From Raja brachyura (lineage: Eukaryota): 64,000 nucleotides of DNA. The stretch lies in the NCBI GenBank assembly GCA_963514005.1, contig OY740782.1:122636001-122700000 (forward strand), read 5' to 3'. Shown here in pieces: positions 5,578-61,898 of the stretch. Under the pieces are notes generated by a model that saw only the letters and a program-made list of their open reading frames with translations, had not been told where the DNA came from and did not search any database. The translations under genes and the position numbers were made by a program. Numbering within the stretch: the first letter of the stretch is position 1; every line of letters starts with the position of its first letter.

Positions 5578-6445
5578 AAAGAACTGCAGATGCTGGTTTA
5601 TCCCAAAGTTAGACACAAAATGCTGGAATTACTCAGCAGGACAGGCAGTATCTCTGGATAAAAAGGATGGGTGATGTTTCGGGTCGGGATACTTCTTCAA
5701 ACCGATTGTAGGCAGGTGGGGTGGGGGGGGGGGGTGGGGACTGGAAGTCAGAAAAAACACAGGGTAAATAGGGGCTGGCAAAATATGAGTTCAGGCAAGT
5801 ACGTTCCCTGACAAGCTGATTGTTGTCTAGAGACGATGTGAGCCCAAGAAAGATATATGGCAGCAAACTGTGGATCTGATTAACAAACTGTTAGTGAAGA
5901 AAGGGGGAGGAAGGAAGGGGAGGGAGAGGAAGGTTTTGTAGAGGTTACCTAAAATTGGAGAATATTGTGTTCATACTGCTGGGTTGTAAGCTACCCAGGT
6001 GAAATAGGTACTGTTCCTCCAATTTGTGTGTGGTCTCACTCTGGCAATGAAGAGGATCCAGGATAGAAACACCGGTTCTGGAATAGGAAAGGGACTTATA
6101 GTTATCAATCAGTATGGGAATGGGTGCATTTTGTGTCTTGGGCCTCCTCCATCGCCAGAGTGTGCACCCCCCCCTTCTTCCACTAAAGGACCATTAATCA
6201 GTGCCATGGCTTGCAACTATATATCCCTCGTGGGCTCACACCATCTCTAGTCAACAATCAGCCTATCAGGGAATCTCCTTGTCTGAGGTCATGTGTTGCC
6301 AGCCCCCATTTGTCCTTTTTTTCATCTCGCTTCCAATCCCCTCCCCCCGCACTACAATCAGTCTGAAGAAGGGTCCTGACCAGAAACAGCACCTATTCCT
6401 TTTCTCCATAGATGCTGCCTGACCCATTGAGTTACTCCAGTAATT
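5578..6445. mobile_element. Penelope-like element relic with inverted ends
   Basis: Minus-strand remnant of the GIY-YIG C-terminus (~5945-6065, ...KLEEQ...LGSLQPS.MN...FSNFR*), flanked by oppositely oriented copies of the GATGCTG...ACTCAGC...CAGCATCT terminal repeat. Confidence 0.7.
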
Positions 6446-7419: not shown

Positions 7420-8960
7420 AGGGCTATACAGCATGGAAACAGGCCCTTTCCAATTTGCCCAACCAAGCAAGTCCCATTTGTCAGCGTTAGGCCCAATTCT
7501 CTTCAAACATTTTCTGCATTGCCAGCATCAATCATCTTGCTCACTTCTTCAATAAACTCAATCAAATTGATGGGATATGCTTTCCCATCCACAAAGCCAT
7601 GCTGACTATCCCTAATTAGTCTTTGCCTTTCCAAATACTGGTAGATCCTGTCTATTAGAATGCTCTCTAATAACGTACCTGCAACTGGTGTTATGTTTAT
7701 CATTTGTAGTTCACAGCTTTTCCTTGCTGCCTTTATTAAATAGAGACAAAACATTAGCCACCCTCCAGTTGCAGTATTCAAGTATTGATTTACAATTATG
7801 CAGGGCCATGGTGAGTTCATACCTGGTGTTTTGTGTACAATTTTAGTCTCCTTACCTAAAGAAGAAAATCGTTGCGATAGAAGGAGTGCAATGAAGATTC
7901 ACAATATTGTGCCAGTAGATCTGTCATATAGAATACAGAACTGTACAGCATAGGAACAAGCACTTTGGCCCATAAAGTCTGTGCTGAACATAATGCCAAG
8001 TTAACATTAAATGTCAACCTCCTTAGCTGCATGTTATCCATATCCCTCCATTCCCTGCATAGTCAAGTGCCCATCTAAAAGCCTGTTATACACAACAATA
8101 ATATCTGCAATAATCACCACCCCTGGCAACATGTTCCAGGCACCCGCCACTCTGTGCAAAAAACATTACCCATCTTTTTTAAACATTGCCCCTCTCACAT
8201 AAATATACTTGCTCATATTTGATATTTCCTTCCTTGGTAAAGGTTCTGACTATCTAGGCTATCTTCACCTCTCATAATTTATATACTTCTCCCAGGTGTC
8301 CCCCCCCCCCCCCCCCCCCCCTCCCCCATATAAAACCATCCAAGTTTGTCCAACCTCTCCTTTTAGTTAAAACCCTGGTTAACCCAGGCAGCATTTTATC
8401 AAACCTGTACCCTCTCCAAAGTCTCCACACCCTTCCTGTAGTGGGGCAACAATATGAGGAAAGGTTGAGTAGAAGGTAGACACAAAATGCTGGAGTAACC
8501 CAGCAGGTGAGGCAACATTTCTGGAGCAAAGGAATGGGCAACGTTTCGGGTCAAGACCCTTCTTCAGACTGACTGAAAGGTTGAGTAGGTTTGGCCTTCA
8601 TGCTCTAGAATTCAGAAGAAGGACAGGCGATTTTATTGAGAAATATAAAATATTAGAGAGTTAGTTAGGATTGAGGTCAATTGCATATTTCACCTACATA
8701 GGATGCATAGAAATGGAGGTCAGTCTCATAAAGGTTTCAGGCCTTTCCAAGTGAAAAGAAGGTCCATTTTTCCAATGAGAGGATGGTATAATTTTGAAGT
8801 TCTCTACCTCTGAGGTTTGCGAAAGCTTTGTCATTGATTTCCCAATTTTGAGAAATTGTTGGATACGGAGGGAGAACAGAAATATTAAAGTTGATGTTGA
8901 AATTTGGGTTCATGAGGCTGAATGCTTGCTCCTGCTCCAATTGCTTCTAATCTTTTGTTT
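7420..8960. mobile_element. Cluster of nested, degraded CR1 fragments with a PLE-derived insert (8474-8575)
   Basis: Minus ORF 7503-7820 contains LESIL.DRIYQYLERQRLIRDSQHGFVDGK..INLIEF (CR1 RT region); CR1 3' ends in both orientations. Confidence 0.7.
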
Positions 8961-11900: not shown

Positions 11901-13047
11901 TTAAAATGGTTAGATTTAATTAATGTCTTCTTCACTGAGGTATGAGTGACTAGAGTCTGTGGAAGAGATCACAGAGTTTAAGAACCACTGGTTTGGAATA
12001 GAATACCTTCCATATTCAAACAGCGCAGTTGGAAAAGTAAGATAATGTTGCGCATGCTAAATTAGCCATGTAACGCCAAGAGCCATGGGCAGGAGGGCCC
12101 CTGTGCTGTGAGATTAAGGGAATACAATTGGTTAGGGTTGAAGAGTATAAATTCAGATTGGACAGATACCCTAAAGTTTTGCTTGATTACCCCAGGGTAG
12201 GATTTGAGAAGAAACCAAGTAGAACTTCCTATTGTAGAAAGAAGGGAGGGAATATTGTTCATATGTTTGCATACTCTATAAACACCAACAAGCATAGCTG
12301 CACCTGATGACCATTGAAACACAGGTATTATTGCCAGTATGCGAAAGAAAAAGTGAGAATTCCCCTAGAATTCATAGCCAACAAAAATATTGAAGAAACA
12401 CATTGGAGCACTGCTCTAAAACATACAGAAGCCATAGCAACTAAGGAAAACAATTTGCATTTGAATATACTTTTGTTGCTGCAGGAACACCCCAAGGAAA
12501 TAAGTACGACATAAATAGACTTGGACTAGCCAGCATGAGAGGTCAAAGTCCCTCTTCTACTTGGAATGCATTCCTGAACTGGGAGATGAGGCTATCCAGC
12601 TTATGAAATTGACTTTTGATTACCAGACAGCCTTTGATAAAATTCCCTGTTCTTTAAAGAGGTTGAAAGCTCATTAATTAATGGAAAATTGGCTAGTTAT
12701 TTGGAAAACTGGTTTAAATAGAAAGCAGAAGGTGCTGATAAATGGAAGATGTTTATTTTAGGTAGTTGGCAATGTCAAGCAGTCCTGTAGGCTTCTTTTT
12801 CCTGAATCCTTTCTATTTGTATCATGTATAAATTGTTGAATGTTGTGTTGTTATTGCAGATGCCAATTGATTTTGCAAGATGGCAACAACAGGTAAGATA
12901 TAGTCTTGTGGCATCAAGCCACATATGGTCTATAAAACCTCCTAGTGATTTCTCCTCCATATTGAGCACCACTTGTAGAAAGCATTGAGGGTAACAAGAG
13001 TTTACGCTAAGTGAGGGAATTCAATATCCATCACCAAGACTGACTTG

Positions 13048-13250
13048 TGTAGGAAAGAACTGCAGATGCTGGTTTAAATTAAAGGTAGACACATAATGCT
13101 GGAGTAACTCAGCGGGACAGGCAGCATCTCTGGAGAGACGGAATAGGTGACGTTTCTGAAGAAGGGTCTCGACCCGAACGGCCACCGATTCCTTCTCTCC
13201 AGTGATGCTGCCTGTCCCACTGAGTTACTCCAGCATTTTGTGTCTACCAC
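13048..13250. mobile_element. Fold-back non-autonomous Penelope-derived element
   Basis: Arms GGTAGACACA..TGCTGGAGTAACTCAG..CAGCATC and their reverse complement; flanked by direct repeat GACTGACTTG (13038-13047, 13251-13260). Confidence 0.75.
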
Positions 13251-39886: not shown

Positions 39887-40010
39887 TAGGTGGTGAGGCA
39901 TGGAGTGAGAGGGAAAGCAAGTGTTACTTGAAGTTAGAGAAATCAACAGCCAAGGACAGAATGGTCAGTAGGGGAATGGGAGAGGGAGTTAAAGAGCTTA
40001 GCCAAAGGCA

Positions 40011-40178
40011 GCTAAACACTTTAATTCCCCCTCCCATTCCCAAACTGACTGTTCTGTCTTGCACCTCCTCCACTGTCAGTGTGAGGCCCAATGCAAATTG
40101 GAGGAACAGCACCTCATATTTCGCTTGGGCTGCTTACAATCCAGTGGTATGCATATTGATTTATCTAACTTCCAGTAA
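40011..40178 (+). mobile_element. Penelope-like element GIY-YIG endonuclease C-terminal remnant
   Basis: Translates AKHFNSPSHSQTDCSVLHLLHCQCEAQCKLEEQHLIFRLGCLQSSGMHIDLSNFQ*; HF...H and E...I..L....GMN are typical of the PLE endonuclease tail; an inverted partial copy lies at 39890-40010. Confidence 0.75.
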
Positions 40179-40859: not shown

Positions 40860-41062
40860 ATAACAAGGAACTACAGATGTTGGTTTATACCAAAGGAACA
40901 CACAAAATGCTGGAGTAACTGAGCTGGCCAGGCAGCATATCTGGAAAACATGGATAAGTGATGTTTCAGTTCAGGAAGAAGGGTTATGACCCAAAACATA
41001 ACGTATCCATGTTCTGCAGAGGTGCTGCCTGAACCACTCAGTTACTCCAGCACTTTGTGTCT
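40860..41062. mobile_element. Fold-back PLE-derived element (diverged)
   Basis: Same architecture as 13048-13250. Confidence 0.7.
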
Positions 41063-42771
41063 TTCTTTTATATCTTTATACTGATTTAAAAACAGTTCAA
41101 ATTTTCTCTATTTAAATTGTTCGGTATTTATGTATACAATAAAATACTCTTAAGAGTTAAAAAATACCTCTTCAGGCCATCCCCAAGCATTTAACAGCCA
41201 ATTAAATATTTTGAAATGTAGTTACCTGATAGACTCATAGAAATTTACAGCATGGAAACAAGCGTGTTGTCACACTGAGTCTGTACCAACCATCAGCTAC
41301 CTATTTAGTCTAATCCCACTTTTCATTTTGCGCAAATCTTCATCAATTCCCCTCAAATTCCACCACTACATTCCTACACATTAAAGGCAATTTGCAGTTG
41401 CAAATTAACCTACCAACCTGCCTGTCTTTGGGATGAAGGAGGTAACTCAAACACCCAGTGGAAATTCGTGCAAACTCCACATGGACAGCACCCGAGATCA
41501 GGATTGTAGCCAGCTCTCTGGTGCTGTCAAGCTCCAATTTGTTCTTTTGTGCTGCCCAATTACAAGAAATCCCAGTCTTTGAAATACATTTATCTTACAG
41601 AAAGTTCTCAAAACTAGTAATGTGACTGAGATATAAATATGAGTCAGAAAGTAGTATTATAAAATAAGTAACACATTTTGCAAGAATAACCAGCCACAAG
41701 GTTTGATTATCAATTCAATGAATATCCAGTATATTTTACAATCAGAATTCATTTAGGAAATGTTATTTAATTCATCGTCAAAATGGGAGAAAACTGGAAA
41801 CCTCTGTTGTCTACTCTGTTGGATACTGTTTGTGGTGTAATTTATGTCATGGCATATGTTCAAATATTTGTTTCTGTCAAAATTATACATCAGTTAAATA
41901 TAATTTATTATAGTTTTCTGTGCTTGCTAAAAGCCTTGCATTGAGTATTTAATTGCTTAAGTGTACAATGAAGGTTTCTTGTACAGAGGTTTGATGAATA
42001 GTAATTTAAAAAAAATGTATTTACAGCCCTATTTAAAGGCACTCATTACAGTCAGTCTTATAAATCAAGCCTGCTTGCAGTCAACAGTTGCAGCAGTCCT
42101 GTGCTGACTTTTTATGGAGGTTTCAACCACTCGTGTACTTTAACCAGAAATGAATAATTTTCCAGCTACTGTATTAATTTAGCTATAAGCATATTTTGAT
42201 GTTATTTTAAGGAAGTGTTAAGCTGTAATTTGCCTCAATATTCCACAGTTATGATGAATGCAAGTATTTGAAAAAATTGCATAAGTACCCTGGAAACATA
42301 AATAATGTCTGGCTGGGTTCATGAATTAAAACTTTTATGTGCCCAATACTCCAGTTCTGTTTAAAGGGAACTCATACATTTCCTGTGGGCAGAAACTTCC
42401 TGCTTCAAGTACTTCCTCCACATTTTTCTAGTCTATCATTATTGACTACTTGAATACATTTTTACTCCAGACTAATTAAACATTGACTAGAAAACTCAAT
42501 GAAAAAATATCAGACCTTAACTTTAGCTCCTTACTAAGAATGTCAAAAATATTCTTACTTTCAAACCAAATACCACAGATGATTGCCCAGGGCTACATTA
42601 TTACAAGTATCATGATCCTGGAGAATAACTATATTTTCATGGCTTTCTACCCAGCTAAGAGAGTGAATACAACAGGATTTTTTGGTTCACAATCATATCA
42701 GCAGAACTGACAAAGTGACCAAAGTGACCTATTCTTCAAAAGAAAATTATCTGTGCCAGTTTAGCAAGTCA

Positions 42772-44987: not shown

Positions 44988-47900
44988 ACGTTATTTCTTA
45001 TTAATTTATGGGGTTGTGCGTTGCTGGTAATCCTAGCATTTGTTATTCATCCATAAATATCTTGTCAACTGACGTTCAGAGGGAAGTTGTTGTATTCAGG
45101 CCCAACAACAATGAAGCAATGGAATGGTATGTTTCAAACTTGGAGTAAGGAAGGATGGGACATAACTTACATCCTTCTCCCTGGCCCACTTTCCCAATTA
45201 CTTTTATGTCTTCAGAAAGTGTAAAAGCACCCAGGCCCTCTTTTAATTCACTGATAAACTGAAAAGTTTAGGATAAAGTACAAGATTCTGCATTACCTAC
45301 CCTCCCCCAAGCCACTGCCCACCACCCCCAAAATGACGTATTGACTTCTGCTATATGTTCTTTGTTTGTTACTAAATACTCAACTCATGCTGATCTTATG
45401 GGTCCTAGATTTGTGTTGGAACTTCCTGATTGGCAGCTCACTGAATACTTCTGAAAATAAAAATGCACCACGTGCCTTGGTTTCACTCATTTATCCTTAG
45501 TGTTACAACTTCAAACAACTCGAACAGCTTTGTCAAATATGATGTTCAAGAAGGAACTGCAGATGCTGGAAAATCAAAGGTAGACAAAAGTGCTGGAGAA
45601 ACTCAACGGGTGTGGCAGCATCAATGGAGCGAAGGAAATAGGCAACTTTTCGGGCCGAAACCTTTCTTCAGATATGATACCCCTTTCTTATTTGTGTGGT
45701 CCTTTTGCAAAATGCATCATATTATCTCTAATTCTATATCCTGGATTAGTAATGAATTAGCCACCAAATCTAAATGAGTAGTTAATTAGTCATACCAAAT
45801 TATTAATATTAATTTCTTCACATTTCTCTCTCTCTCATTAGACACTTGGTTTACCACTGTTCCCAAACAAGGTACAGATATGCAAATACAAAGTGTTCAA
45901 TGTCTACAATTTCTTTACTATAATTACTACTGTCTCTGCCTCTTGGGAACATATCCTTATTTTGGCTAATCTCAAGTTTTTAAATATCTGTAAAACCTTT
46001 TAAAATCTGTTTTTATGTCTCTTGCTAGTTTACACTCATGCTCTAAGTCCTTTGGCTTACTGCTTTTTTGGCAACCTTCTAAGCCTATTCCTATAATTTA
46101 AAGTTATCTTTAACATCTCTTGCACTAATCACTAATCAGACCACTAAGTTTGCACTTTCCCTGGTGTTTTTTTATTTGTTAAGGGAATTTATATTTTTTA
46201 TGTTATGAATTATTCTTTCATTCCTTGCCTTTATTTAACTAGTTTTTTTAATCTTGTTTCCCAATCCACCATGGTCATTTCGGCGTTTGCTTTGCTCAGA
46301 TTTTTTTTAAAACTATTTTTTGCCATGATTAAATCACCTTCAAATGAACTATAAAATTCTATCATATTATGATCACACTTCTGCAGAGGCTCCTGTTAAT
46401 TGATCTGGTCTCACAATACAATATTACACGTAAAATAGCCTGTTCAATGGCACATCTATATGTGTAATTATCTTAAATGATTTATATAAACTCCTTTTTA
46501 ATAAACTCATTTTACATATGTTTTATATAAACTTTTCCCAAACCTATTAGAAGATCCATGTCCTTTAACACTATCATCACTTTGAAGAGGACCAAACACT
46601 TCACTACACCAGTGCTTTCTTAGCATCTCCAAAACAATATAGAGAACGTCATTTGGTTGCTTTAATCAATCCTTTATTGTCCAGGATATTTCTTTCACTA
46701 CTTTTTCCTATTTCATCCATTGTCTGAAAGTTATCTTTGGTTAAATATTAATTCCCAGTCAGTCTCAATCACATCACTTTTATTAGATCAAAACTGTATA
46801 TTTTGGTGTAAAAGACCATCTATTTTATTATGTACGCTCCATGTACTGTTAGTATAAAGTTGCTAGACCTAACCCCTACATAATCCCAGTAGCTAATGCT
46901 ATACCCTTTTCTTGTTCTTAATCTAATAGTTCAAGGGTCTCCAATGAGGTACATAGTAGCTGTGGACTACTCTCTAATTATTAGTAAGATGGTTCAATTG
47001 CCTGATAACAGGCAACTTCCCTAACTGATGCACAAATCAGATGATTGTTACCTGTAAGATTATTTCGACTGTGTATCTTTAAACTCTTCTGCATAAACGT
47101 TTTCCTTTTTCTTCCCATGCTGTTTGTTTCAAAATGGACCGTCACTAGACTGGATCCCACTTTCACTTGATATGCAAAGTTCTCTTCCAGCCACAGGCTT
47201 AACCCATAATATTTTCTTTCTCAACTAAAATCCATGTTGTGTGGAATTTTTCTTTACAAAATCTTTAGATATGCAATCTGACCCCTGCACAGAAGTCTAA
47301 AATTTATATACTTTAGACTTAGGGAGAGGTCTTTGTTAGGTCACCTCTATTAATTATGCACATATAATATTAGCATTATGTTCCAGTCAAGATAAATGTA
47401 ATACACACATGTTGGTGAAGTTGAAAACACGTTCATTTATATTTTGTTACCTCAAGGAAGCACTTTCTCCAGCAGAAATTACTTATTCAAATGTCCTGTC
47501 ATAGAAATGCATTAATTTTATTTTGAATATTCTGTATTTATAGTTTAACATATCCATGGAAACATCTGCATTGAATGCCAATGGATATCTCTACACTCAC
47601 TTTACACTTCTTAGTCTGGATTAAGGTTCATAATTACAAATGTTGTGCTTTAATTCTATTTTGTATATATTTAGCATAAGGGATTGTTATTGGAGCAAGT
47701 AAATCATGACATTGGCAGATCACTGAATCAGAAAATTATTAATTTACTTGTATGGGTTAAGATTCCTTTAAACATATAAGAAGGCAGTGCTGCATTTGAA
47801 CTTTTCCATGTAATTAAACTGAGAGAAACAGTGGGGAGAGGTTAAGAATAGCAGAAGCATGGGGCTCCAGAAATAATTGTAGCTATACCTCAAAGGTACA

Positions 47901-49856
47901 CCCCAAAGGTTGTCTGACTTAAATTCCTGCTTATGCCTTGACGATTGTGATGAGTTGCGCTTCACTGCTAATGTTCTGCACAGACTTATTGTAGAATGTT
48001 GAAGAGCAGCTGCAGCAGTTCTGTGTTTCTGCCAACTTTTATTCTCCTGTTCCAATCAACAACACTGACTAACAGCCTGGCCATCTCTCCTGGCATCAAG
48101 TAGGCCACCTCATTGATCTATTGATTTCACAATCCAAAGCCAGGGGCAGCATTTTTTTTATCATGATTACCATTGTTATTATCTTTCACTTAAGAATTGA
48201 TGGTAACACATCATATATCAACCAGTCCTGCCACAGTTTCCATTGGTTTTTCGATCCAATGGTCAATTAACCACTTTGCAAAAGGCAGAATCATCAGAAG
48301 AAAGTGAACAGCATCAGATTTGTTGGCAGCCACCTATTTAGTGAGGGCCTTGGAAAAATGTGTCTATATTTGTGATATTATAAATTTGTCACCTTTATTT
48401 CACATGAGTGAGAACACAAGAGTGCAAAGATGTAGGAGCGGGAGTAGGCCACCAGACTCAACAAGCCTGGCACACCAGTCAATATGCTCATGGCTCATCA
48501 ATGCTGGCCTCACCTCATCTGTGCTAGATCCCCCATAACCATTAATTCCTCAATCGTTCAAATATTTATCTATCTACACTTCAAATATATTGATTCACCT
48601 TGCTTCCATCAACTTCAAGAGCAGAGAGTTCCAGAAAGTCACTACCCTCTGAGAGGTGCACTCTCTGCACATGTTTAAACAACGGCCCCATTATTTTTCA
48701 ATCTTCACTTCTTCACCTCAAATTATCCCTTTGACTCTTCCACTCATGAAAGCATCTCAACTTCCAGCCTGTAAAGTGCTCCGCACCTGGCTTCAGTCTC
48801 TAAGAGTTGGAAAATATTGCTCAACTTGGGAAAGATAACCAAGGGAAAGGGGAAAAGATTAATCTTACAACTGAAAAAGTATATTGATATGATTCAAATA
48901 ATGGATATAAACCTAATGGACAGGACATGATATAATCCTACCTGTTTAATCATGCTGGTTCACAGGAGAGCATAATAAAAGTTCTGCACTTGATTGTGAA
49001 TAGTAACAGCATTCCCAATGTGCCATCATCATAGATGTTTCAAGATGCTAAAGACCTATAGTTGCTAAGAAATATCAGGACAAGTTTGCTTCCAGGATTT
49101 CAATTACTGCACAAAAGCAGTAGAGGATCTCAACAGAAATAGTAATTGTGGAACTATAAGCAGGCACCAATCTTTCATGTTTTTATCCATGAATTGTTAT
49201 CATTCCTATCAACAATTCATTCATCCTTACGACACATAATTAAATTAATTTTTATTTTCCAAGTGTTCTCACAAAGAAAATCACAATTTTCGTTTGGTTG
49301 ACCTTAAGCAAAAACAAAATCAAACAATAAGTTTCTTAAGTTTGAGTCATGATCAAAGGTCTGCTAACCTTTTTATTCGACTCAGTTAGTGGCATGTTCT
49401 CACCCACTTTCTTACTAAATTTCAGGAAAGCTTAGTGAAAAACAAATTTCTGTTTGATTTGATGCTTTACAGTTTATTTTCTTTGTGTGACTGCTCTTTC
49501 AAAGCATGTATCTTAAAGATTTTTAATTATAACACTCTGCCTTAAGCATATATTCAATATTAACAACATGTGACTTTTTATTACATACGTTCAAAATAAA
49601 GGAACCTATAGATCAGCAGCCAAAAATGCCCCAGACACATTTAAAAATTCACTTGAGTTTAAATGCACATCAAGACATGTAGCACTTTGGCCTCATATTT
49701 TTACTTTCCCTTCAGAGAACACAGCTCTTGTTGGACAGAAGATTGACTCCTGTATCCATAAATAACAGAACATTCTGTAATAAGGCAGTGCCAAATAATA
49801 ATAAGACATGTTGCAAAAGAATATAGAACTCAAAGGACTTTGTTCATTTCCCATAC

Positions 49857-50010
49857 CTTCCGAACATGTGTCATCACTGCTAATGCTGAGTCGTTCTGCG
49901 TTGCCCTGTACGTACTTGTTGTATAACTTTATTCGTAAGGCCCAGCTCAAATCTGGTTGTCTAACAGTATTCTTCAGGCGACGCCTAGCATTTGCAAACC
50001 AGTTGGAAAC
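49857..50010 (-). CDS. mkx: MKX coding exon 3, homeodomain helix 3 and downstream (VSNWFANARRRLKNTVRQPDLSWALRIKLYNKYVQGNAERLSISSDDTCSE), 154 nt
   Basis: Acceptor TTTCTAATAG|G, donor GAAG|GTATGG; WFANARRRLK is the Iroquois/Mohawk-type recognition helix. Confidence 0.97.
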
Positions 50011-52569
50011 CTATTAGAAAAAGTATATATATTTAAAGTAAATGGCTATTTGGCAAAAAGATTTCCAAAAATCTCTGTTACAAAAATTGTCATCTACAAG
50101 CCCAATTTTTTTCTTCTCGATATTTACGTAAATGAAATGCAATTATTTTGCCTACAGCTTCCTTAAAACATAAGTTTTCCATCTGAAGCTAAACATAAGG
50201 AACAAAACAACATTAACCATTACGCTGCAGCAGTGGTCCAATGTAATAGCATGGTTTCAGAATACATTTCAACAACTTTCTTCACAAGGGCGTTTCACCT
50301 CTCAACTGCGCACTTTATTTCATGTGCTCTTTATTTATTGCCTTTGCTCCACAATGAAATGGTTAAAATAAGTGAGTGGAGCAAAACAGATAAGATTTCA
50401 TGGCACCATATGTTGGTGCTCTGAGGCTTTTTTCCTTGGCTGCTTGTTGCACCCAGAATTTGCTTTGTGCTCCACGCAGATAGTACAGTAGAACGTGGCA
50501 GGGAAGGCTTCATGCTGATTGTGGTCACTGGGGGAGCAAGTAAGTTCACCTAGCCAATAATATGCACTGTCTTGCCAATTGGAAGAAGTTCTGAGCTAAA
50601 AAAATAAAGCAAATCTGGGACCTCGCTGTAGCTGTTGTGAATTCAGTACTGCAAGATTCTTTACAAGTGACAAGAAACTAAAATTTTATTGCAAATTGGT
50701 GGCTCAAGGTACATTAATTTCGTAATTTTTGAAATGCAAAATGCAAATACGAAATCGTAACTTTGATGTAATTAAATATGGTCAGAAATAATGCAAGTCT
50801 CGTTTAAGGACGAGGCAGCAATTTGACATAAAGAATTAATAAAAATATTGAAAATAACAGCACTACCTTAGGATCGAGTTAAAACAAAATATGGGCAATA
50901 TATATCTGTCTGGCATAATGTATTAGTAAGTTGTAAGTCTGATTAATTTTACTGCATTGATATTGTGCCAAATCCATGTGGCATCAAAAACTGTAGTTAA
51001 TAGTTACTGATCTGATTTCAACCAAAAACAATATTAATACAAGGCACCACCTGTGTTAATCATAGTCAGTGGCGGATGATTTTTTTACTAAGAGGAGGTG
51101 AAACAAAATATGGCCATGTGGAAATTACACAACTCAATCCGGTCTGGGCCTTCACAATTATTACAAGTAATAAAACATGCAAGTAATATCCTGTAATGTG
51201 GGATCAAGAAATGTAAAATTAGCAAAAAGAAATGTAATCATGAAGGTGCCTAAATGGGTTTGGTTTTAATTGTCAGCTGTCAAAAGACAAGGAATGGAAA
51301 ATTCAGTTGGGAGGCTTGGGTTGGCTATGTAAAGCAGTAAAGCAAAGGTGATTAGCCCTCATAGAAACCTCTCTTCAAGAAAAGTGAACACAGGTGGCTG
51401 AGAAGACTCGGCATTAGTTCGTTGTGAATACTTTATGTTTCGCGCCGGATTGCTCAGCCGCTGTGCGTATGTACACCGGATTTTGGATGTGTATTGATGT
51501 GACATTGTGGGGGGGGGGGTGGGGGGGGATAATGTGGGAACACTGCGTCGTGTTATTCCAAGCCACCAATTTCAAGGCAATTGTGCTTTAAATATCCTTA
51601 TTTTTCTTTGACCGAATGCTTCAAAAACGTATTTTGGAGATTGACACGCGTGTAGGATTGCATTAAAGGATAAATTAGTGGAAATATCTACAGCGACAGT
51701 TACGAGGTTATTATTTCATTGCTGAACATTATATTTCATCTATGACTTTTCTCCGTTATAGCAGGTACCCACAGCGGGTTTCTGTATTTAGCTTTGTCTG
51801 TTTTGATTCCGTGCCTTTACAGGAACTTTGCCTTTGCATGTTTTATTGCCACGAGCCCTTCATGAGCTGTGTAAATAAATTGTCAATAAACTGGAATAAC
51901 AACCATCGCCCCTCTTTGAATTCGCCCTAAGCCGCTTGATTCTGGTTTCTGATGATTTATCTACATTGAAATATGATTTGCTCGCCAATTCTCCGCCAAA
52001 TTTGCAGAGGCAGGTGCGCTGGGCGGCGGCGTTGAAGTAAGATGGGATGGGGTGGGTAATTGCTGGTGCCGGGAATCGATCGAGTCGATCGATCGAATGG
52101 GACGAAAATGAGCAGAGTTACAAACTGCAGGACCACCTTTCATTGAGGCACGGGAGTATTTCACTCGATTATTCAGCCGGGGAATCAACTAAGCAGTGGA
52201 GGAACAGATTCACTCCTAAAATACAAGTGTCCAGAATCCCTTCCTTCTTCCACCAAAAATAAGATTTGGTTTGTTCTTTTTTACTCATTAACACAAGGTG
52301 TTGCTTTTGCATTATTAATATTATACGATGCTGCCTTAACCTCGAATAGCGTGTAAGCCCCTCCAGGGAAACCGCATCTCCCATCAACTAGCTGTTACTG
52401 ATGGAAGTGTCTGCACTAAGAGAAGATATAAAGCGGATGGGACGACGTTTGCTTTCAAGCAATCGTCTCATATTCCAAGTCAATGCGAGCAAACCGAGAG
52501 AATAAGTAATATGACATTGCAATCAAAAAGCAAGTTTCAAACCATGTTCAAAAGATAGAACAAAAATGA

Positions 52570-52885
52570 TTGGGTGACGTTTCGGGTCGAAACCCTTCTT
52601 CAGACTGAAGTAGTTAGATAGAGCTCTTAAAGACAGTGGAGTCAGGGGACATGGGGGAAGGCAGAAACGGGGGTACTAATTGTGGATGATCAGCCATGAT
52701 CACATTGATTGGCGGTGCTAGCTCGAAGGGGCGAATGGCCTACTCCTACACCTATTGTCTATTGACTATGGTCGAACCGAAACGTTACCCATTCCTTCTC
52801 CCCAGAGATGCTGCATGTCCCGCTGAGTTACTACAGCAATCTGTGTATCTTCGGTTTAAACCAGCATCTGCAGTTCCTTCCTACG
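52570..52885. mobile_element. PLE-derived fold-back element interrupted by a CR1 3' end (52612-52768)
   Basis: Left arm GGGTGACGTTTCGGGTCGAAACCCTTCTTCAG; right arm CCGAAACGTTACCCATTCC...CAGCATCTGCAGTTCCTTCC. Confidence 0.75.
52576..52603 (-). ncRNA. Candidate minimal hammerhead ribozyme motif (PLE-associated)
   Basis: Minus strand CUGAAGA-A-GGGU(UUCG)ACCC-GAAA-CG-UC: catalytic boxes, 4-bp stem II with UUCG loop, palindromic ACGU stem III, GUC cleavage triplet; stem I is weak. Confidence 0.5.
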
Positions 52886-54357
52886 CCTAGAAATGTGTCA
52901 GTGGTTCTTGCTCAAGGTGTGGTTTGAAAGCTGACAACTAACTTCACGAATTAGAGAGTCGTTGGTTGAAAGGAGGATTAGGGTTAGGAAGGATGTGAAT
53001 GGAATTCAAACTTCGGAACTTGGGACCTTGGTTCCCGCCTTTGTCGATGCAAACTAAACCAATCCGATCGAAACTAATGCAACCCAAGGCTATTGTTTTA
53101 AGCTTGCGCTTTTTAAAAGTAGACAATGTTTATCATGAAATGGTGCATTGTCACAGATAATTGGAGAACGTACACAGCATAGTGTATTGGTGTAATATCC
53201 TTTATAAATCCATGGGGGGGGGGGGGGGGGGGGGGTATTAGCGGATTCAAGGCAATGGGATTGATGCAGGAAATAGCGTTGAAGTCAACGGTCTGCGTGA
53301 TGTTGACGAGGGGCCCGGGAGGCCGAATTGCTTCCCCGGGTCAGCGTTGTTGAGTTAAGCTGTTCTTATATTTGTGCAACCGGAAATACATTTACTTAAT
53401 GGTCATATTCAGATAAACTTTAGTGGCACGATAAAACTTTCTATGGACTGGATGGAATCTCTCCACAAAGAAAGGTAACGAAAAAGATCTGCCGTCTTGG
53501 AGCCATGTTTCTGCACAACAATATCCAGTTTGTTCAACGCGTTTCCGTACAACGCTGTAGCTGGTATTATTCAGCACCTGAATTGCAGTTGGAGAGAACA
53601 TGTTACAAGCATTTATTATCTTAACGGGAACATTCTCTGCTGTAATCCCCACGGCAAATGTACAGTAACAAAGGGGTCGTTTCAGAATGATATTCTGTAC
53701 TAAAATAAGAGTAATCATAGTAAATTGGCCGCTTGAAACGCGGAATAATCGTATTATCCGTAAAGAGTTTAACAAAATCACATTAAATAGTAATGATGGT
53801 CAGATTACGGGGGATGGAAATAACAGGACTTTAAGCAAATCCCTAAACATGGTTTAATTCAAAGCAAATTAGTGGGTCGCGAATTATTTGTTGTCTGCTT
53901 CTCTCCCCTCTTGCTATTCATATTTTAGAATTATATTCAATATTCATGATTTCCTGTAAATACCCGAACAAAAACAGCAAAAATATAAACTGACCAGAAC
54001 TTATTACATTAGGAGGTTGTAGTCAGCATAAGGAATTGTTCGAATAAAGTAGTTCAGGATTAATTTGCATTCTATTACGTTGAATTCTAACCGTGAAGCT
54101 GCCAGATACAGATTCAGCCTGGATTTCGCCTGTATCTGGATTGAGTAATCGTTTTTCATTTATTTAACTCTGTGAGTGAAACTGTCGCTGGAGATCAAAC
54201 AATTACTTCTTAACCACCTACATTCTGGAAATAGTTTGGTTTGGTTAAATGGGATCATATATGAACACTAAAAATAAACACAAAATACTGGAGTCAACAC
54301 AATATTTTCACTGTTCCTCGGTACACGTGACAATAAACTAAACTGAACTGAACTGAA

Positions 54358-57330
54358 CGAACTCAGCGGGTCAGGCAGCATCTCTGGGGAAAAGGAATCG
54401 GATGGAGTGCGTTCATCAGTCTGATTAAGCGTCTCAACCCGAAACGTCACCTATTCCTTTTCTCCAATGATGCTGCCCGTCCAGCCGAGTTACTCCAGCA
54501 TTTTGTGTCTATCTTCGGTGTAAACCACAATCTGCAGTTCCTTCTTACACACATGTGAGCACTAGTTAGAGTATTCCAACTTCTTGTGGGATAGTATGTC
54601 CAACAAAACCACGTCTCTACACTAAGAGTTTACATTGAGATTCAAAATTAATGTCTAATGTCCCTGTCTTAAAAATAATAACAATTGAATGATTTATCCA
54701 AGACAAGGATTCGCACTTAAAAATTGGGGAGAGTTGGCTGGGGTGGTTAACTTCCGAACTGCCCGTGCATTATGGTCATGTAGTCTCGGAGTTGCAGTCG
54801 CCGTCCAACAATGCGCCACTTTCCGCGCACAGCTCCCAGAAGTGCCACTATTTAACTTTGATCCTTTATTTAACATGCAGTATATCTTTGGGCGAAGCGG
54901 GGGTAGGCGAGGATAGGAGCTATTGACATTGGGCAAACGCATGATAAACTCAGACTTCCCATGTGATAAAGGTGACAAACTGAAACACCTTTTCTTCTGT
55001 AGTCGCGTGATTTCGGTAGTTATTATCTTATGTTTTTTTTCTTTATTGTGCATTATCTGTGCGTATTGTGTGCACGGGTACATTAAGCTGCTGCAAGTAA
55101 GATTTTAATTGTTCCGGTGTCAGTATATGTGATAATTGAATACTCTTGAATGGGTGATTCTGGGAGAAATTAAGGGCAGAAATGTCGATGAGAATCTGTA
55201 GTGGAGAGAGAAAGAAAGGGCCTTACTTGTACCAGGGTCATCTGGGATCCAAGGGCCAACAGAATCTTTTCCGTTTTGGTCGGGTAGGGGTTGTCTCGGT
55301 GTTTATAGAGCCATTGTTTCAAGGGTCGAGCCATATCCTGAAGAGCTTGTCGTTTGTGCCTAACTTTTCCGCCGCCCTGCCGAGAGCTGCAAGCAACGCA
55401 GAATAACAAATGAGAAATCGTCAGTCACCACTAAACAGACAAAAGTAGGACCCTGCTGAAGGCAACCAAAGCAACGAGTCAACTGATAACGGAAGCATTT
55501 TATATGCTGCACCAAGATAAAGTCTCACACAAAGCGCACCTCCCGCACTATGCCCCGCACATCATTCGTGTACATTGAATAGACCATGCTCGGCAAATTA
55601 GCAACACGCGTTGCAATCCACCGCGCGTGTGCATTGCACGCCTAGATTGTGCATTGTACAATACCCCCACAATATTCAGTTATTACTCATCACATAAATG
55701 TAAAGAACAGCAATTGTGATAATAGTACCTTGACAAAAAAAAATGCTGGAGTAACTCAGCGGACCAAGTTCGGCAGACTGAAGAAGGGTCTCGAACCGAA
55801 ACTAGACCCGAACCTATTCCTCTTCTCCAGAGATGCTGCCTGACCCGCTGAGTAACTCCAGCATTTTGTCTATCTTAGGTGTAAGCCAACACCCACAGTT
55901 CCTTCCTGCACATTATTCCTTCTTAAATGTTATTCCCTTGTCATGTACATAAATGTTATTCTCATCATGTATCTTTTCACTGCAAGTGGATCGAATGTAA
56001 TCATGTATTGGCTTTCTGCTGACTGGTTAGCACGAAACAAAAGGCTTTTCACTTTTCAGCTCGGTACATGTGACAATAAACTAAACAGAACTAAATTGAA
56101 ATTGAAATAAACTTTATGATAGAACCGCCTGGAGACATGTTTGAGGTGTGACCGCACATCGGTGAGATGTGCGTGTATGCGTCAGATAGGTTGTGTGTGT
56201 TGGGGGATGGGGAAAGTTGGAGGATGTTTCAAGCCCATCAGCTTTAATCGGGTCACTTCCACGTGAAACTGTATTTAGAATTCCCAGGTGTCTGTCCTGC
56301 TGAGTATTTCCAGCGTTTTCTGATTTGTTCCAGATTTCCAGCATTTGTAGTTTCTTGTTTGCTTTTCTATTAATCATTATGTGTCAAAGTAAGGTGCTGG
56401 ATCAACCATCAGAAATAGCCAATTGATAGCCAGCCATCCATCCACATAAATTCAAATCTCACATTATGTAAAGAAAATACTAACAGAACTTTCTTCTTTA
56501 ATCAAACTTGAGCCAATTCCCCCGATGAAGGCGCCTGTCGGACCTGACGGGAAAAATCCAAATCACCACAGCAATACATTCTCGCTTTAAATTAGAAAAT
56601 AGACTTAAACCGAACCCATTTATTGTTACGTAGAAACAAGGAATTGCAGATGCTGGTTTACAATAAAGATACAACGTGCTGGAGTGACTCAGAGGGTCAG
56701 AAGTCTGAGGAAGGGTCCCGACCCGAAGCGCCATCTATCCATGTGCTCCAGAGATGTTGCATGGTCCGCCGTAACTTCAGCACTTTGTGTCCATTTTATC
56801 GTCAGGAAGTTTGGTTTTTCTCTAATGATTTCGTACAGATTTAAAAAATGGGATTGGATGAACCCAAAATGCGCATCGTTTAATGAAAATAAATAGAACG
56901 GTAGATGCTGAGGATCTAAAAGAAATGTCTCAGCCGGAAGACAGACATTCAGCGGAGACTCTTTTAACTTTTGCTTGAAGGGTCACTGAAATTAGTATTA
57001 GTACCTCTACACGTCGTGGGTTCATGGCGCTTGTTGCAATCTATGACAATAGACTAATCCAAGTACATTCGTTGGAGGCGAAGTGTTTGTGAGGTTTCTC
57101 ACGGAATGACGAGGCTCAGTGGAAATGGGACTATCCCTGTCTTTTGGACGGTGCAGAACGATGCCAGGCCTAGGCATAACTCGGCTTCTGTCATTGTGTT
57201 TAAAGAAAGAAGGTAGGGTTTCAACCGGAAACATCACCTACTCCTTATCTCCAGAGATGCTGCCTGACCCGTTCAGTTATTTTGTGTCCATCTTCGGTGT
57301 AAACCAGCATCTGCAGTTCATCCCTACACA
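54358..57330. mobile_element. Several short PLE-derived copies in mkx introns (54358-54552, 55735-55912, 56628-56792, 57205-57330)
   Basis: Each carries GATGCTGCC...GAGTTACTCCAGCATTTTGTGTC and/or a CTGANGAAGGGTC..GACCCGAA variant; the span also includes coding exon 2. Confidence 0.7.
55227..55386 (-). CDS. mkx: MKX coding exon 2, N-terminal part of TALE homeodomain ([53 protein letters not shown]), 160 nt
   Basis: Acceptor TTGCTTGCAG|C, donor CAA|GTAAGG; TALE PYP motif; phase matches both flanking exons. Confidence 0.97.
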
Positions 57331-58844
57331 TTTGTTTTTGAAATTTGTGTTATATGTACAATGCATTTCACAACTTCAGGACATGTTAAAGTCGGTGTAG
57401 TTTTAGTGCACGCGACAATAATACACAAAATTGAAAAAAAACTAAATAAACATGTGAAATAAAATTTGCGTTTTGATAAAGGCACTGACATGGTCGCAGA
57501 CAGACATTTCCGTGTGTCGTTGAATGAGAAGTAAACGCCATCTCTAGGTCAATGCAATTGGGACGTAGATGCTGGAATGTTTCATTACGCGTGGTGCATT
57601 TATATGAATGTATGCGTATGAGATCGGCAAGGAGATTTGTTCAGTGTGAAGAGTCCGCCGCTGCTGGGGAAATGTGAGTGTATTCGAGACGACACCTGTA
57701 GATGTCGCTGCGAATCGTTGGGCCTGATGTTCAGTTGCTGCTGATCCTGGCCCTGATGGTTCCTCTGACGAAACATGTCCCTTTGAACATAGCCAGACTG
57801 TCGCGCCGTTACTAAACTTGCGCACTGCAACATATGCGACCCAAAACCACTGTCATCACATACGATATGTGTATCGTAATATTGCATAAGTAACGCGGGT
57901 AACTCTAACAGTGGATTTCTACATGCTTTTGACATTAACGTTAAGAGAATGAACTGTGCTATAAAACCAAAATAATATTCAAATTCTCCCGGAATCCATA
58001 ATGACGACCCTATAATAAAAACAGCAGGTAATTTTGATTTGATATGTTTTTTCGTTGGAACTGAAATATATATTACACAGATATAACAAAAATATTGCCA
58101 GATAACATTTATTTGCAAGCTTGTGTATGTTTATATAATATTTCACCGTACTTAAATTGTTTAAAGATTTTACAATACCACGTAGGGAAAGATGTTTACG
58201 TTTGTGGTCGACCACTGTGGAAAAGCTACACCAGCTAAATACATTCGAGCAGTTAAAATGTCAATGTTGGTTGAATTCTATTTTATTCCCCTTCTTTGCC
58301 TTATTTATGCAATGAGGCGTGAGCACTATTTTACGCGTCCAGTTCGGTGAGCTTTTAAATGAAAGGTACAACGTGGTTGACTATATACGTTTAGTTAGTT
58401 AGAATATAACAATTTCTAATAGTTCACATTCTTAAATTGATATGTCACCTCTGGTCTGTTCAGAATATTGTAATCATTTCCCCAAGCAGATAGTTTCACA
58501 CAGTTCACACTGAAGCAGTAAATTTGAAAAAAAAATTAAAAGGTTTCAAATGTCGTGCATTGGTTTACCCAAGTATAACAAGATAGTGTGCACATCTTGT
58601 TCTAGTTTCTCTACACGGTGAACGCGTTACTTTTTAGTTTGGGGAAGCGGGTGCCGTTGCACATGCCAAGATACATACAAAAACACGAACACCTCTCCGC
58701 CAATGTCGGTTTGCCCAAAGCCTATTTACAAGTGCAAGAGTGTCGTTCAGGTTCGCTCAGTCTATGTCCGCTTCCGCTAACACTTCTGCAGCCCGTCAAA
58801 TGTAATAATTTAATACAGATCTTATATTGTGAAGATGGTCGTAC

Positions 58845-59023
58845 CCTGACCTCCTGTGCCGCAGACCGCGTTGACTTCTGCTAGACGGGCTGTCCGGCAT
58901 CATTAGCTCCCGGTGCTGTTCCTCCATCACTTCGATGTACGTTCTGCTGTTCCTCTCCACCTCATTTGCCTTTTCTTCGAAAAGAACCTGGTTGGCAAAT
59001 TTATTGAAAACGATGGTGTTCAT
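58845..59023 (-). CDS. mkx: MKX coding exon 1 (MNTIVFNKFANQVLFEE...GLRHRRSG), 179 nt, ends phase 2
   Basis: ATG at 59023-59021 (context AAAAAGATGA); donor GG|GTACGA at 58844. The upstream acceptor TTTTTTGCCTTCAG| puts the exon start at ~59087, which implies an upstream non-coding exon. Confidence 0.93.
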
Positions 59024-59999
59024 CTTTTTGCACGCTCCGGGGCCACCGTCTGTTCTGTATAATGAATGGAAGGCCGACCCTGCTTCACTGAAGGCAAAAA
59101 AAAAATCAAAACAGATCATAGGTTAACATCAAACTCAAGGGGCGCAGTCCGGCATGTAAATGAAGACAAAGTACACTCTATGCACAAAGGAAGGGGTCGG
59201 CAGGTTTCTAGGGATAGAATGAAACACGGGTGAAAGGCCTTGCTGTTCATTATCGCCGGCAGATAAGAGTTGGTTTTCACACTCCGCCTTGTTTACAAAC
59301 CTCAAAATAGCGAACATAGATTTACAGATGAAACCGTTTACTGAGGAATTGCGTCTCGTTAATCGGCCTGATTTTCGCCCACTGAGTTTAGTACGCAAGG
59401 ATTAAATTGTTATCTCATCCAAATAGGAACCATTGATATAATTATCCCCAGCCCAATGCAAACTGGGGGGGGGGGGGGGGGGTGCGGTGCGAGCAACCTC
59501 AGTAAACGCATGTGACAAGTTAACTGAAGCCACTTGTTAGAACAACTCGGAGACACTAGAGGTTGCAGATGGTGAAATGTTGAGTAAAACACAGAATGAT
59601 TGATGAACTCAACGGGTCAACGCCGTCTATTCATGTTGCTCCCCAAATGCTGCCTGACTCGTTGAGTTCCTTCACCAAGTTGTGTATTTTGTTAGAACAA
59701 TGTTGAGGAAGATTTACATCCCGCCTATTTTGTTCTCTTTATCACAACAGATACACAGAGGGGTAAAAACTTGACTAGGGAGGGAAAAAAAGCAACTGAG
59801 TGTCCAGGGGTTTGAAGTGAAAAGTTTGGTCTCCGTCTATCTGCCACTGGCACATTTGAAGGACAACGCGAGCCTTGTAAACGTAGCAATAGAAACGCTA
59901 GTAATGATTAATGTTTCTTACGTTTGTGTTAGAACTGAACGCGGGGTTGACTTGGACAGAGCTTCCATTCAGAACGGATGATTAGATAAGAACATCTGG

Positions 60000-61100
60000 A
60001 CGAGGTTGAGGAGTATCACACACAAAGCGCACGGGCCACCGAGGTTGTGGGGAGAGTTTGCAATGTCCCCCAGTGTAGGCAGTGGATTGTAAGTACACAC
60101 CCCCTCTCCCCCCCCCCCCGGTTAGTTCCCAGACAGAGAGATGGTCCGACACGTGTCTCCTCCGCGAAGATTAGATAATGGTCCCGTTGTTTCGCAGCCT
60201 ATATTTTACCCGAGTCCCCCCCCCCCCCGCCCCCCGCCCCCCGCTGGTTACCCGCGCCCCCGTTTCACCCGAATTCGCTTTTGCCAGCTGATTTTTCTGT
60301 TCAGAATGGGGGTTGGATGGGCCAGCACTACGGGGATCCTTCCGGGTTGAAGGATTTAAAGCTTGTGTGTTATGGAGTAGTCTACGACTAATCTGTTACT
60401 AATCTTTAGCCCGCAGGCGGTCCCGCTGATCAGCCAGCCGGACCGAGAACTCCCCGTGAACATTCGCCAGCGCCGGGTCCGGGATCCAGCCAACAATTTG
60501 CCTTCGTCTCGTCCGTTACCACAACCAACCACCCACAACCACCGCCAGTCCCTGCCCAGACCCACTTTGCAAAATACAACATGTTCCCGAAGTGTTTTCT
60601 AAAATCCCCATCACATTCTGCAGAGAACAAGCATAGCGCCGAGGTAGTCGTGCACACTTACACTCCCAATCAATACTACCAAACAAAGCAGAAACGCGTT
60701 GACTTCACCTGGCTCTGGTTGGAAAGACCCGATCACAGCAGTAAAGCGATAAGAGCGAGAAGTAATCCAGCTCCTGTGTGCGCCACCATTCCCATTTCAC
60801 ATCGCTGTCAGTCAGACTGATCTGAAACCGCACGAACCACGCTCGCCTCTCTTCTATTTACCCTGATGATGGCCCTACCCCAGAACCTGAATAAACAGCG
60901 TCGCTCATGTTTCCCAGCCGCGCTGCCTAGTCTGCGAACATAGACTGAATGCGTTATCCATGTTCCAGGGCAGTGCAGCGAGAGGCTGGCGCTGCCTGCT
61001 TTACACCATCCTGTTCTGCCGCTCCTAAATATAGCGCGCTTATTTCACTTCCAGCAATAACATTTCCGTTATAAATAAAGTGACCTGGTGCATTTTCGCT
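60000..61100 (-). promoter_or_regulatory. CpG/GC-rich promoter and probable non-coding first exon of mkx
   Basis: High GC and CpG density just upstream of the first coding exon; candidate donors on the minus strand at 60708 (CAG|GTGAAG) and 60661 (GTAAGT); CTAAATATAG (MEF2 consensus, TATA-like) at 61025-61034. Confidence 0.55.
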
Positions 61101-61709: not shown

Positions 61710-61898
61710 AGGAACAGCATCCATAATATATATTTTCGAAATCGATACATTTGATCAGTTGATCAAATGTATCGATTTCGAAATTATATATGAAGGATGC
61801 TGTTCTTGAAATATCACGCTACCGTTATATCCCGTTTGGTGAAGTATGCAGTGTTGCATTCTTCACAAAACGGGATATAACGGTAGCGTGATATCTCA
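61710..61898. repeat. Two adjacent long palindromes (hairpin 1: 61710-61807; hairpin 2: 61807-61898)
   Basis: Hairpin 1 has ~48-bp arms around a GT loop with a perfect 24-bp core. Hairpin 2 has 40-bp arms (61811-61850 / 61855-61894) with 2 mismatches and a GTGT loop. Confidence 0.95.

What the first reader, a model, noticed from the sequence alone, without database searches (positions are those of the whole stretch)
52570..52610. Minimal hammerhead ribozyme motif carried by the dominant short repeat, sense to mkx pre-mRNA
Seen: the minus (mkx-sense) strand reads CAGU-CUGAAGA-A-GGGU-UUCG-ACCC-GAAA-CG-UC-ACCCA. This gives the CUGANGA box, one extra A, a GC-rich stem II with UUCG tetraloop, the GAAA box, a self-complementary ACGU stem III and a GUC cleavage triplet. 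Intact or decayed versions occur at ~5673, 6363, 8540, 9937, 13156, 36357, 38875, 40975, 45645, 54421, 55778 and 56705. Established: Penelope-like retroelements carry minimal type I hammerheads with a palindromic stem III that cleave as dimers. Inference: this genome may hold a very large family of hammerhead-bearing non-autonomous PLE derivatives (retrozyme-like), many inside introns where they could affect pre-mRNA. Stem I is only ~2 bp here, so this copy may be inactive.
Basis: partly seen in the sequence, partly recalled or inferred. Interest (0 to 1): 0.75.

Follow-up and report, generated by a model that had tools for sequence, protein, structure and literature searches.

The report
Skate Penelope-element minimal hammerhead relic
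The flagged 37 bases are a real minimal hammerhead-ribozyme motif at the end of a very abundant Penelope-like jumping gene in a skate genome, a known arrangement, and this copy in an mkx intron is likely a dead relic that is predicted not to fold into a working ribozyme.

Summary
The motif is there as described (core 52603-52576, minus strand) in an intron of skate mkx, and chance does not explain it. It heads a 100-135-base repeat with 25 pieces in the window. One long copy runs back into the end of a GIY-YIG endonuclease frame. Seven back-to-back pairs each carry a ~35-base tail on one arm only. These are hallmarks of Penelope-like element (PLE) terminal repeats, whose minimal hammerheads were described in 2014. 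Similar motifs from unrelated contigs sit behind the same endonuclease and show covarying stems, so the motif kind is a real structured RNA. This copy is one arm of such a pair; its partner is split by a LINE fragment. It has two contiguous stem I pairs, is predicted to misfold, and has an antisense arm upstream. Only 2 of 12 scored copies pass a strict descriptor. No tandem retrozyme array was found in the window, and no effect on mkx is supported. Less ordinary: roughly 10^5 or more copies, and 5' ends clustered at a palindrome on the ribozyme's edge. Verdict: new member of a known kind; cleavage untested.

The parts
52571..52607 (-). Minimal type I hammerhead motif. Stem I 5' side 52605-52604; CUGAAGA 52603-52597; extra A 52596; stem II with loop 52595-52584; GAAA 52583-52580; palindromic ACGU; predicted cut between 52576 and 52575
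52552..52608 (-). Minus arm of a back-to-back pair: hammerhead, then an apparent internal deletion of about 45 bases, then a likeness of the family's first (tail-less) 3' end
   Evidence: sequence read directly and compared with the family alignment; the deletion is my reading
52598..52610 (.). Palindromic junction of the pair (centre 52604), overlapping the CUGA box and the 5' side of stem I
52614..52769 (+). 3' end of a LINE (CR1 type; label recalled) inserted into stem II of the plus arm's hammerhead
   Evidence: 7 other hits in the window; one adjoins an RVT_1 frame at 26809-27273
52770..52884 (+). Rest of the plus arm: broken stem II, GAAACGTT, body and ~35-base tail
5578..6140 (-). Longest copy: end of the GIY-YIG endonuclease frame (6070-5948), ~250-base pyrimidine-rich 3' region, decayed hammerhead at 5700, body and tail
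6169..6444 (+). Inverted partner of the longest copy, hammerhead at 6363, no tail
40008..40178 (+). Second fragment of the same endonuclease end (71% identical over 52 aa to Leucoraja protein P0002); no hammerhead follows it
8470..8575 (-). Only other copy passing the strict descriptor; solo, tail-less, flanked by a 14-base direct repeat
13046..13250 (.). Back-to-back pair, tail on one arm, 10-base direct repeat at its ends
40861..41071 (.). Back-to-back pair, tail on one arm
54352..54551 (.). Back-to-back pair centred on the same palindrome, tail on one arm
55740..55916 (.). Back-to-back pair, tail on one arm
56635..56797 (.). Back-to-back pair, tail on one arm
45539..45673 (-). Solo copy sense to mkx, flanked by a 7-base direct repeat; core letters kept but the 10.1-11.1 and 15.2-16.2 pairs are broken
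55227..55388 (-). mkx exon upstream of the finding (first part of the homeobox)
49858..50010 (-). mkx exon downstream of the finding (second part of the homeobox)

Best explanation
The motif is the minimal hammerhead in the 3' terminal repeat of a Penelope-like retroelement of a skate, likely of the Neptune type, and this copy is likely a dead by-product of insertion that is predicted not to cut mkx RNA. Inferred from published work on other PLEs: the element's own reverse transcriptase-endonuclease nicks AT-rich DNA and starts copying inside uncut element RNA at either of two sites about 35 bases apart, which gives ends with or without the tail. Copying often stops or folds back at the palindrome on the hammerhead's 5' edge, leaving 100-135-base solo units and back-to-back pairs. 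In the active element the ribozyme would work only as a dimer (ACGU pairing with ACGU) and probably with help from the element's protein. Shown here: the anatomy, the link to the endonuclease, and the LINE fragment splitting the partner arm. Inferred: the copying steps, the order of events, and inactivity.
For: Endonuclease link: the frame end at 5948-6070 lies on the same strand 248 bases before a hammerhead. The related fragment at 40017-40175 is 71% identical to the C-terminus of P0002, which has a weak Pfam GIY-YIG hit (E 0.008, below cut-off), and 41% identical to the frame in L015. The frame in L124, which matches the same endonuclease, passes the Pfam GIY-YIG cut-off. Homologue P0019 and frames in L015 and L124 carry a cysteine cluster before the GIY-YIG motif, the Neptune/Nematis mark in PMC8557442. 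Ends: 3' ends fall at +92..+101 (6 of 25 pieces) and +122..+132 (11 of 25), and 7 of 7 inverted pairs have the tail on one arm only, as PMC8557442, PMC3846280 and PMC11167929 describe. Relatives found by a pattern that did not specify stem I: 76 of 104 have 3 or more stem I pairs, against a mean of 29.8 (max 39) with shuffled partners. The free stem II pair is C-G 75, U-A 27, U-G 6 and C-A 0 of 108. 27 of 108 have the same endonuclease end 84-165 bases upstream on the same strand, and 29 of 108 have an inverted self-match. Inactivity of this copy: predicted probability about 0.02 for stem II and about 0 for stem I; duplex with the upstream arm -32.3 kcal/mol; dimer target fold -6.1 against -26.5 for the best co-fold. 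Only 2 of 12 scored copies pass the descriptor.
Against: No full-length element and no PLE reverse-transcriptase frame were seen in the window, and no genome was held, so the clade rests on the endonuclease end and on homologues. Folding programs do not model hammerhead tertiary structure or protein help; the Anolis PLE hammerhead cut only with protein present. This copy keeps all 11 core letters and both palindromic stem III letters. 11 of 25 pieces begin within -8..+4 of the CUGA box, and several short units have their own direct repeats, which fits a defined short element as well as truncation. The relatives fall into related families, so the shuffle overstates significance, and my pattern fixed the core letters, so their conservation there was not tested. 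No RNA evidence was obtained either way.
Confidence: 0.85

Rival explanations
1. The 100-135-base unit is a non-autonomous element of its own. It has a defined start at the hammerhead's 5' edge, either because transcription starts there or because it is the short first product of internal priming, and it is copied by the PLE protein. It would be SINE- or retrozyme-like but not tandem.
For: 11 of 25 pieces start at -8..+4 relative to the CUGA box. Solo units at 8470-8575 and 45539-45673 and the pair 13046-13250 have 14-, 7- and 10-base direct repeats. The TCAGTCT there fits the initiator consensus (recalled, noticed after the fact). Joints 52605/52884 and 52884/55778, seen in 15-51 contigs per run, may be tail-to-hammerhead junctions.
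Against: Longer copies extend 30 to more than 200 bases upstream, one into the endonuclease. At least one of the 11 starts (38904) is probably an alignment limit. The characterised Drosophila Penelope promoter lies 46 bases before a 75-base intron that ends at helix I, so it does not start at the hammerhead. Fold-back at a palindrome explains the junctions without a new element. The joints may hide letters in between.
Confidence: 0.25
2. Intronic sense copies such as this one cut pre-mRNA, pairing with another copy in the same or another transcript, and so affect mkx or host genes in general.
For: The core is intact and sense to mkx. Copy number is very high. The flank contigs of all four runs laid (three related organisms) reach into the motif, so the insertion appears shared (table 8).
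Against: Predicted misfolding and an antisense arm 170 bases upstream. No second intact sense motif in mkx. Minimal hammerheads showed no monomer activity and low dimer activity in PMC4209133, and 8 of 9 Xenopus dimer elements did not cut. The three organisms differ by only about 1% here, so sharing says nothing about selection.
Confidence: 0.07
3. The resemblance to a hammerhead is incidental: a repeat that happens to contain CUGANGA and GAAA.
For: No Rfam hammerhead hit. Core letters are no more conserved than the body within the window. The dominant variant folds poorly.
Against: It has the published extra features: a nucleotide between 9 and 10.1, G10.1-C11.1, and a palindromic 15.2-16.2. 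It sits at the expected place behind a PLE endonuclease, and relatives covary in both stems.
Confidence: 0.03

Closest known systems
Minimal hammerheads (min-HHR) in the pseudo-LTRs of metazoan Penelope-like elements (Cervera and De la Pena 2014, PMC4209133)
   Same: Type I order, CUGANGA plus one extra nucleotide, G10.1-C11.1, palindromic 15.2-16.2 without loop III. Mostly single copies from truncated elements, with pairs on opposite strands close together.
   Different: No cartilaginous fish is in their 56-motif alignment. Contiguous stem I is 2 bp here, as in their Drosophila virilis and Culex examples, against 3-5 in most. Stem II is only 4 bp. Copy number looks far above their 4,000 (coelacanth) and 9,000 (Xenopus), though my figure counts decayed copies.
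Neptune/Nematis-type endonuclease-containing PLEs (as described in Craig et al. 2021, PMC8557442)
   Same: C-terminal GIY-YIG endonuclease followed by the terminal repeat, heavy 5' truncation, inverted copies, and a 30-40-base tail at one end. Homologues carry the cysteine linker.
   Different: The reverse transcriptase and the linker are not present in the window, so the clade was not placed on a tree.
Poseidon PAc element of Anolis (Frangieh et al. 2024, PMC11167929)
   Same: Two 3' ends a tail-length apart, downstream of the hammerhead, and copies that keep the uncut hammerhead.
   Different: PAc is of the Poseidon clade and its reading frame starts at stem II. I did not establish where the skate element's frame starts.
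Non-LTR retrozymes (PMC7229834; bioRxiv 10.64898/2026.07.22.740005)
   Same: Short, non-coding, hammerhead-bearing, and related to PLE terminal repeats; reported in one chondrichthyan genome.
   Different: They are defined by head-to-tail tandem units. None occur in this window, where copies are solo or head-to-head.

Membership tests
PLE minimal hammerhead | CUGANGA, GAAA and UH core in type I order | tested here: met
   all 11 core letters and H17 present at 52603-52576
PLE minimal hammerhead | Extra nucleotide between 9 and 10.1; G10.1-C11.1; palindromic 15.2-16.2 | tested here: met
PLE minimal hammerhead | Helix I of about 3-5 bp (2 bp in some published variants) | tested here: inconclusive
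   2 contiguous pairs plus 2-3 beyond a 2x2 mismatch; the variant at 5700 gives 3 plus more and folds correctly in a script model
PLE minimal hammerhead | Located in the terminal repeat behind a PLE frame | tested here: met
   5948-6070 endonuclease end to hammerhead at 5700; 27 of 108 relatives
PLE minimal hammerhead | Covariation of stems across families | tested here: met
   met in relatives from other organisms; inside the skate family only one-sided changes were seen
PLE minimal hammerhead | Self-cleavage as a dimer or with protein | not testable with these tools
   no experiment; no RNA run was listed
Endonuclease-containing PLE | C-terminal GIY-YIG endonuclease | tested here: met
   by homology of the last ~55 residues; the window fragments alone have no Pfam hit
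Endonuclease-containing PLE | Inverted truncated copy and optional 30-40-base tail | tested here: met
   7 of 7 pairs
Endonuclease-containing PLE | Telomerase-like reverse transcriptase in the same frame | tested here: inconclusive
   not seen in the window; only a fragment in homologue P0013, recognised from recall
Neptune/Nematis clade | CX2-5CxxC-type cysteine linker before GIY-YIG | tested here: inconclusive
   a cysteine cluster is seen in homologues P0019, L015 and L124; that part is missing from the window
Non-LTR retrozyme | Head-to-tail tandem units, each with a hammerhead | tested here: not met
   none among 44 tandem rows in the window; the rest of the genome was not tested, and joints are ambiguous
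Non-LTR retrozyme | Circular RNA expression | not testable with these tools
   no RNA holder listed

The most novel reading that the evidence does not exclude
Skates carry a hammerhead-headed 100-135-base short element at 10^5 or more copies, with a fixed start at the ribozyme's 5' edge. Its dominant lineage traded a stem I pair (TCGGT to TCAGT) for a palindrome that drives fold-back insertion, so the hammerhead region now serves as the copying boundary rather than as a cutter. A minority of intact copies may still cut in trans with help from the PLE protein.
Probability: 0.2. Interest if true: 0.55.

Novelty: new member of a known kind. Interest (0 to 1): 0.3.

Why it matters
The kind is known, so the value lies in scale and mechanism. 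Cartilaginous fish were missing from the original survey, and this family looks one to two orders of magnitude larger than the vertebrate families counted there. That makes it a large natural data set for the open question of how PLE inverted repeats and tails arise and what the hammerhead does in the cycle. The clustering of 5' ends at the hammerhead's edge, with few at the cut site, agrees with in vitro work showing that uncut RNA is the template. For mkx itself the copy is most likely irrelevant.

Tried and rejected
Whole-genome analysis was not possible: no genome is held. Rfam gave no hammerhead hit. Pfam gave nothing on the short endonuclease fragments. The exact skate majority pattern found 0 matches in metagenome contigs. 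None of these loci shares the skate repeat body (best E 0.91), so they are relatives by motif and endonuclease, not copies of the family. No RNA holder was listed, which is no evidence on expression. Core-versus-body conservation inside the window was uninformative (p=0.49), and copies were picked by similarity. No target-site repeat longer than 5 bases was found for the finding's own pair. Strand bias inside mkx could not be tested with so few copies. I considered that the CAG before the CUGA box is a splice acceptor, as in Drosophila Penelope: a pyrimidine tract precedes it, but short copies keep the AG, and it was not tested. Lunse et al. 2017 could not be read, so I cannot say whether it lists elasmobranch motifs. 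Look-ups of earlier scan notes by sequence, place and narrower words returned nothing. Motif searches for a neighbouring gene in the left part of the window found no convincing exon.

Full report
Observation. The quoted sequence is present on the minus strand: C3 at 52603, nucleotide 17 at 52576, and ACCCA after the predicted cut. Its 25-base core has 6 matches with up to 3 mismatches in the window and none in 100 shuffles. A strict minimal-hammerhead descriptor hits 52603 and 8567 only, with no hit in 200 shuffles. The host gene is mkx: an exon is 98% identical to Mohawk of the skate Amblyraja radiata, the gene spans 59968-21411 on the minus strand, and the motif lies in the intron that splits the homeobox. 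The host is therefore very likely a skate.

The repeat. BLAST with six window copies as references gives 25 pieces. Measured from C3, their 3' ends fall at +92..+101 (6 pieces) and +122..+132 (11 pieces); the other 8 end at +40 to +86 or at +115. Their 5' ends fall at -8..+4 in 11 of 25. Only 4 lie within 5 bases of the cut site (+28), and two of those are internally deleted copies. Fourteen pieces form 7 back-to-back pairs, and in all 7 only one arm carries the ~35-base tail. Three short units have direct repeats of 14, 10 and 7 bases at their ends, so they are separate insertions. Tandem Repeats Finder reports 44 rows, none with a period above 34.

Link to a Penelope-like element. The longest copy (5578-6140, minus) continues upstream through a pyrimidine-rich region into a reading-frame end at 6070-5948; a second fragment of that frame end lies at 40008-40178. 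The fragments have no Pfam hit alone. The second is 71% identical over 52 residues to the end of a Leucoraja protein with a weak GIY-YIG hit. A search of representatives gave 20 hits; the 5 I looked up are named ray, skate and whale-shark proteins, two of them host proteins ending in this sequence. Homologue P0019 shows a cysteine cluster before YIGET, the mark of Neptune and Nematis elements in PMC8557442. No PLE reverse transcriptase was seen in the window, so the clade is likely, not shown.

This copy. It is the minus arm of a pair centred on the palindrome at 52598-52610. The plus arm began with its own CUGA box at 52605, but about 156 bases of a LINE 3' end lie in its stem II (the CR1 label is recalled), and it resumes at 52770 and ends with the tail at 52884. 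The minus arm appears to have lost about 45 bases after the cut site and ends at the first 3' end. In mkx pre-mRNA the antisense of the plus arm lies upstream and can pair with the motif (-32.3 kcal/mol). Even without it, stem II has a predicted probability of about 0.02, because its GGGU prefers the ACCC after the cut site and the palindrome ties up the CUGA box. The dimer target fold scores -6.1 against -26.5 for the best co-fold. These are secondary-structure models only. Of 12 copies scored, 3 keep all 11 core letters and 2 pass the full descriptor; the other sense copy with an intact core, 45671, has broken 10.1-11.1 and 15.2-16.2 pairs. Eight of the 20 aligned rows were left out of that count because they lack part of the motif.

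Is the motif a real structured RNA? Inside the window the core is no better kept than the body (106/121 against 542/640, p=0.49), as expected for dead copies. The informative comparison is across families. My scripts read 124 loci with 132 matches and 108 distinct contexts, 104 of them with flanks on both sides. Of these 104, 76 form three or more stem I pairs, against 29.8 (maximum 39) when partners are shuffled. The sequences are related, so this is not a probability, but many different complementary combinations occur. The free stem II pair is C-G 75, U-A 27, U-G 6 and C-A 0. In 27 of 108 the same endonuclease end lies 84-165 bases upstream on the same strand, 29 of 108 have an inverted self-match, and their 3' extents are again mostly two-peaked, at about +72..+103 and +125..+148. 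The frame in L124 passes the Pfam GIY-YIG cut-off, and the skate peptide is 41% identical to the frame in L015. These relatives fold better than the skate copies (median stem II probability 0.996, against 0.017 and 0.065).

Stem I in the skate family. With native upstream sequence the usual pattern is 2 pairs, a 2x2 mismatch, then 2-3 pairs. One copy (5700) has G instead of A at position 2.3; joined in a script to the majority core, it gives stem II probability 0.77 and stem I 0.57, against 0.32 and 0.02 for the A variant. The A variant is the one that completes the palindrome. That the dominant lineage traded a pair for a palindrome is a hypothesis resting on one copy.

Abundance. Contigs of four DNA runs were laid on 46000-64000, about 290,000-340,000 contigs per run. 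The bin holding the motif has a summed depth of 230,000-870,000, against 5.5-78.5 for the unique flank contig. Scaling for the 46 repeat bases in the 601-base bin gives about 1.5-6.5 x 10^5 (my arithmetic). The tool warns that this is not a copy number, so I take only the order of magnitude. The density in the window, 25 pieces in 64 kb, points the same way.

Comparison with print. PMC4209133 (I read parts 1-2 of 4 of the text and parts 1-2 of 3 of the supplement) defines these motifs, notes opposite-strand pairs, 2-bp helix I variants and low activity, and has no cartilaginous fish among its 56 aligned motifs. PMC11167929 (parts 1-2 of 4) shows two internal start sites that explain the tail, uncut RNA as the main template, and protein-assisted cutting. 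The bioRxiv preprint 10.64898/2026.07.22.740005 (parts 1-3 of 5; supplements not seen) defines retrozymes by tandem units, finds them in one chondrichthyan and derives them from PLE repeats; its supplements may already list this family. I saw passages only of PMC8557442, PMC3846280, PMC2377424, PMC6765202, PMC6155905 and PMC7229834. Lunse et al. 2017 was seen only as cited in PMC6765202. Searches pairing hammerhead or Penelope with shark, skate, elasmobranch, cartilaginous fish or Leucoraja listed no paper whose title or abstract is about this family. Repeat databases could not be searched and may hold it. Earlier notes of this scan report the same kind in shark-like genomes; they are unchecked leads.

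Verdict. The retrozyme label fails its defining test in this window, and an effect on mkx is unlikely. It is a new member of a known kind. What remains of interest is the copy number and the clustering of 5' ends and fold-back junctions at the ribozyme's edge.

Noticed in passing
window 9728-9808 (+): HDV-like ribozyme motif: Rfam CPEB3 ribozyme scores 40.7 bits (gathering 35), E 1.9e-7. By eye it has an 8-bp P2, a 3-bp P3, a 6-bp P1 with a different sequence from the model's, and the catalytic C position kept. It lies just inside the left arm of a ~100-base inverted repeat (9623-9721 and 10677-10775) bounding a ~1.15-kb segment. Three paper searches listed no title on a CPEB3-type ribozyme in cartilaginous fish. 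Possibly more interesting than the finding itself.
   Followed up: partly
window 52614-52769 (+) and 7 other places: 3' end of a LINE (CR1 type, label recalled) with short tandem tails; here inserted into a hammerhead's stem II.
   Followed up: partly
window 39955-40058: A ~100-base inverted repeat that overlaps the start of the endonuclease fragment at 40008; it accounts for several weak Rfam microRNA hits.
   Followed up: partly
window 61712-61898: Near-duplicated ~93-base segment with a strong hairpin; below-threshold MIR2617 hit, E 0.005.
   Followed up: no
L124:3501-4468: A contig filed in a bacterial metagenome-assembled genome carries an animal-type PLE endonuclease frame and hammerhead, probably host DNA mis-binned.
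   Followed up: partly
L123:2143-2171: Hammerhead-like core match in a Treponema genome contig, with only one stem I pair and no PLE frame nearby.
   Followed up: no
proteins P0003 and P0006: Annotated host proteins of a skate and a ray (neuromedin-U receptor 1; ATP synthase subunit C3-like) end in this PLE endonuclease tail, through exonisation or gene-model error.
   Followed up: no
window 6330-6362 (+); loose ends at 52608: Upstream of the hammerhead lies a pyrimidine tract ending in CAG, like a splice acceptor; in Drosophila Penelope an intron ends at helix I.
   Followed up: partly
window 24469-25423 (+), 33450-33842 (-), 35057-35949 (-): Further decayed reading frames that look like LINE fragments; the last has weak reverse-transcriptase similarity.
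   Followed up: no
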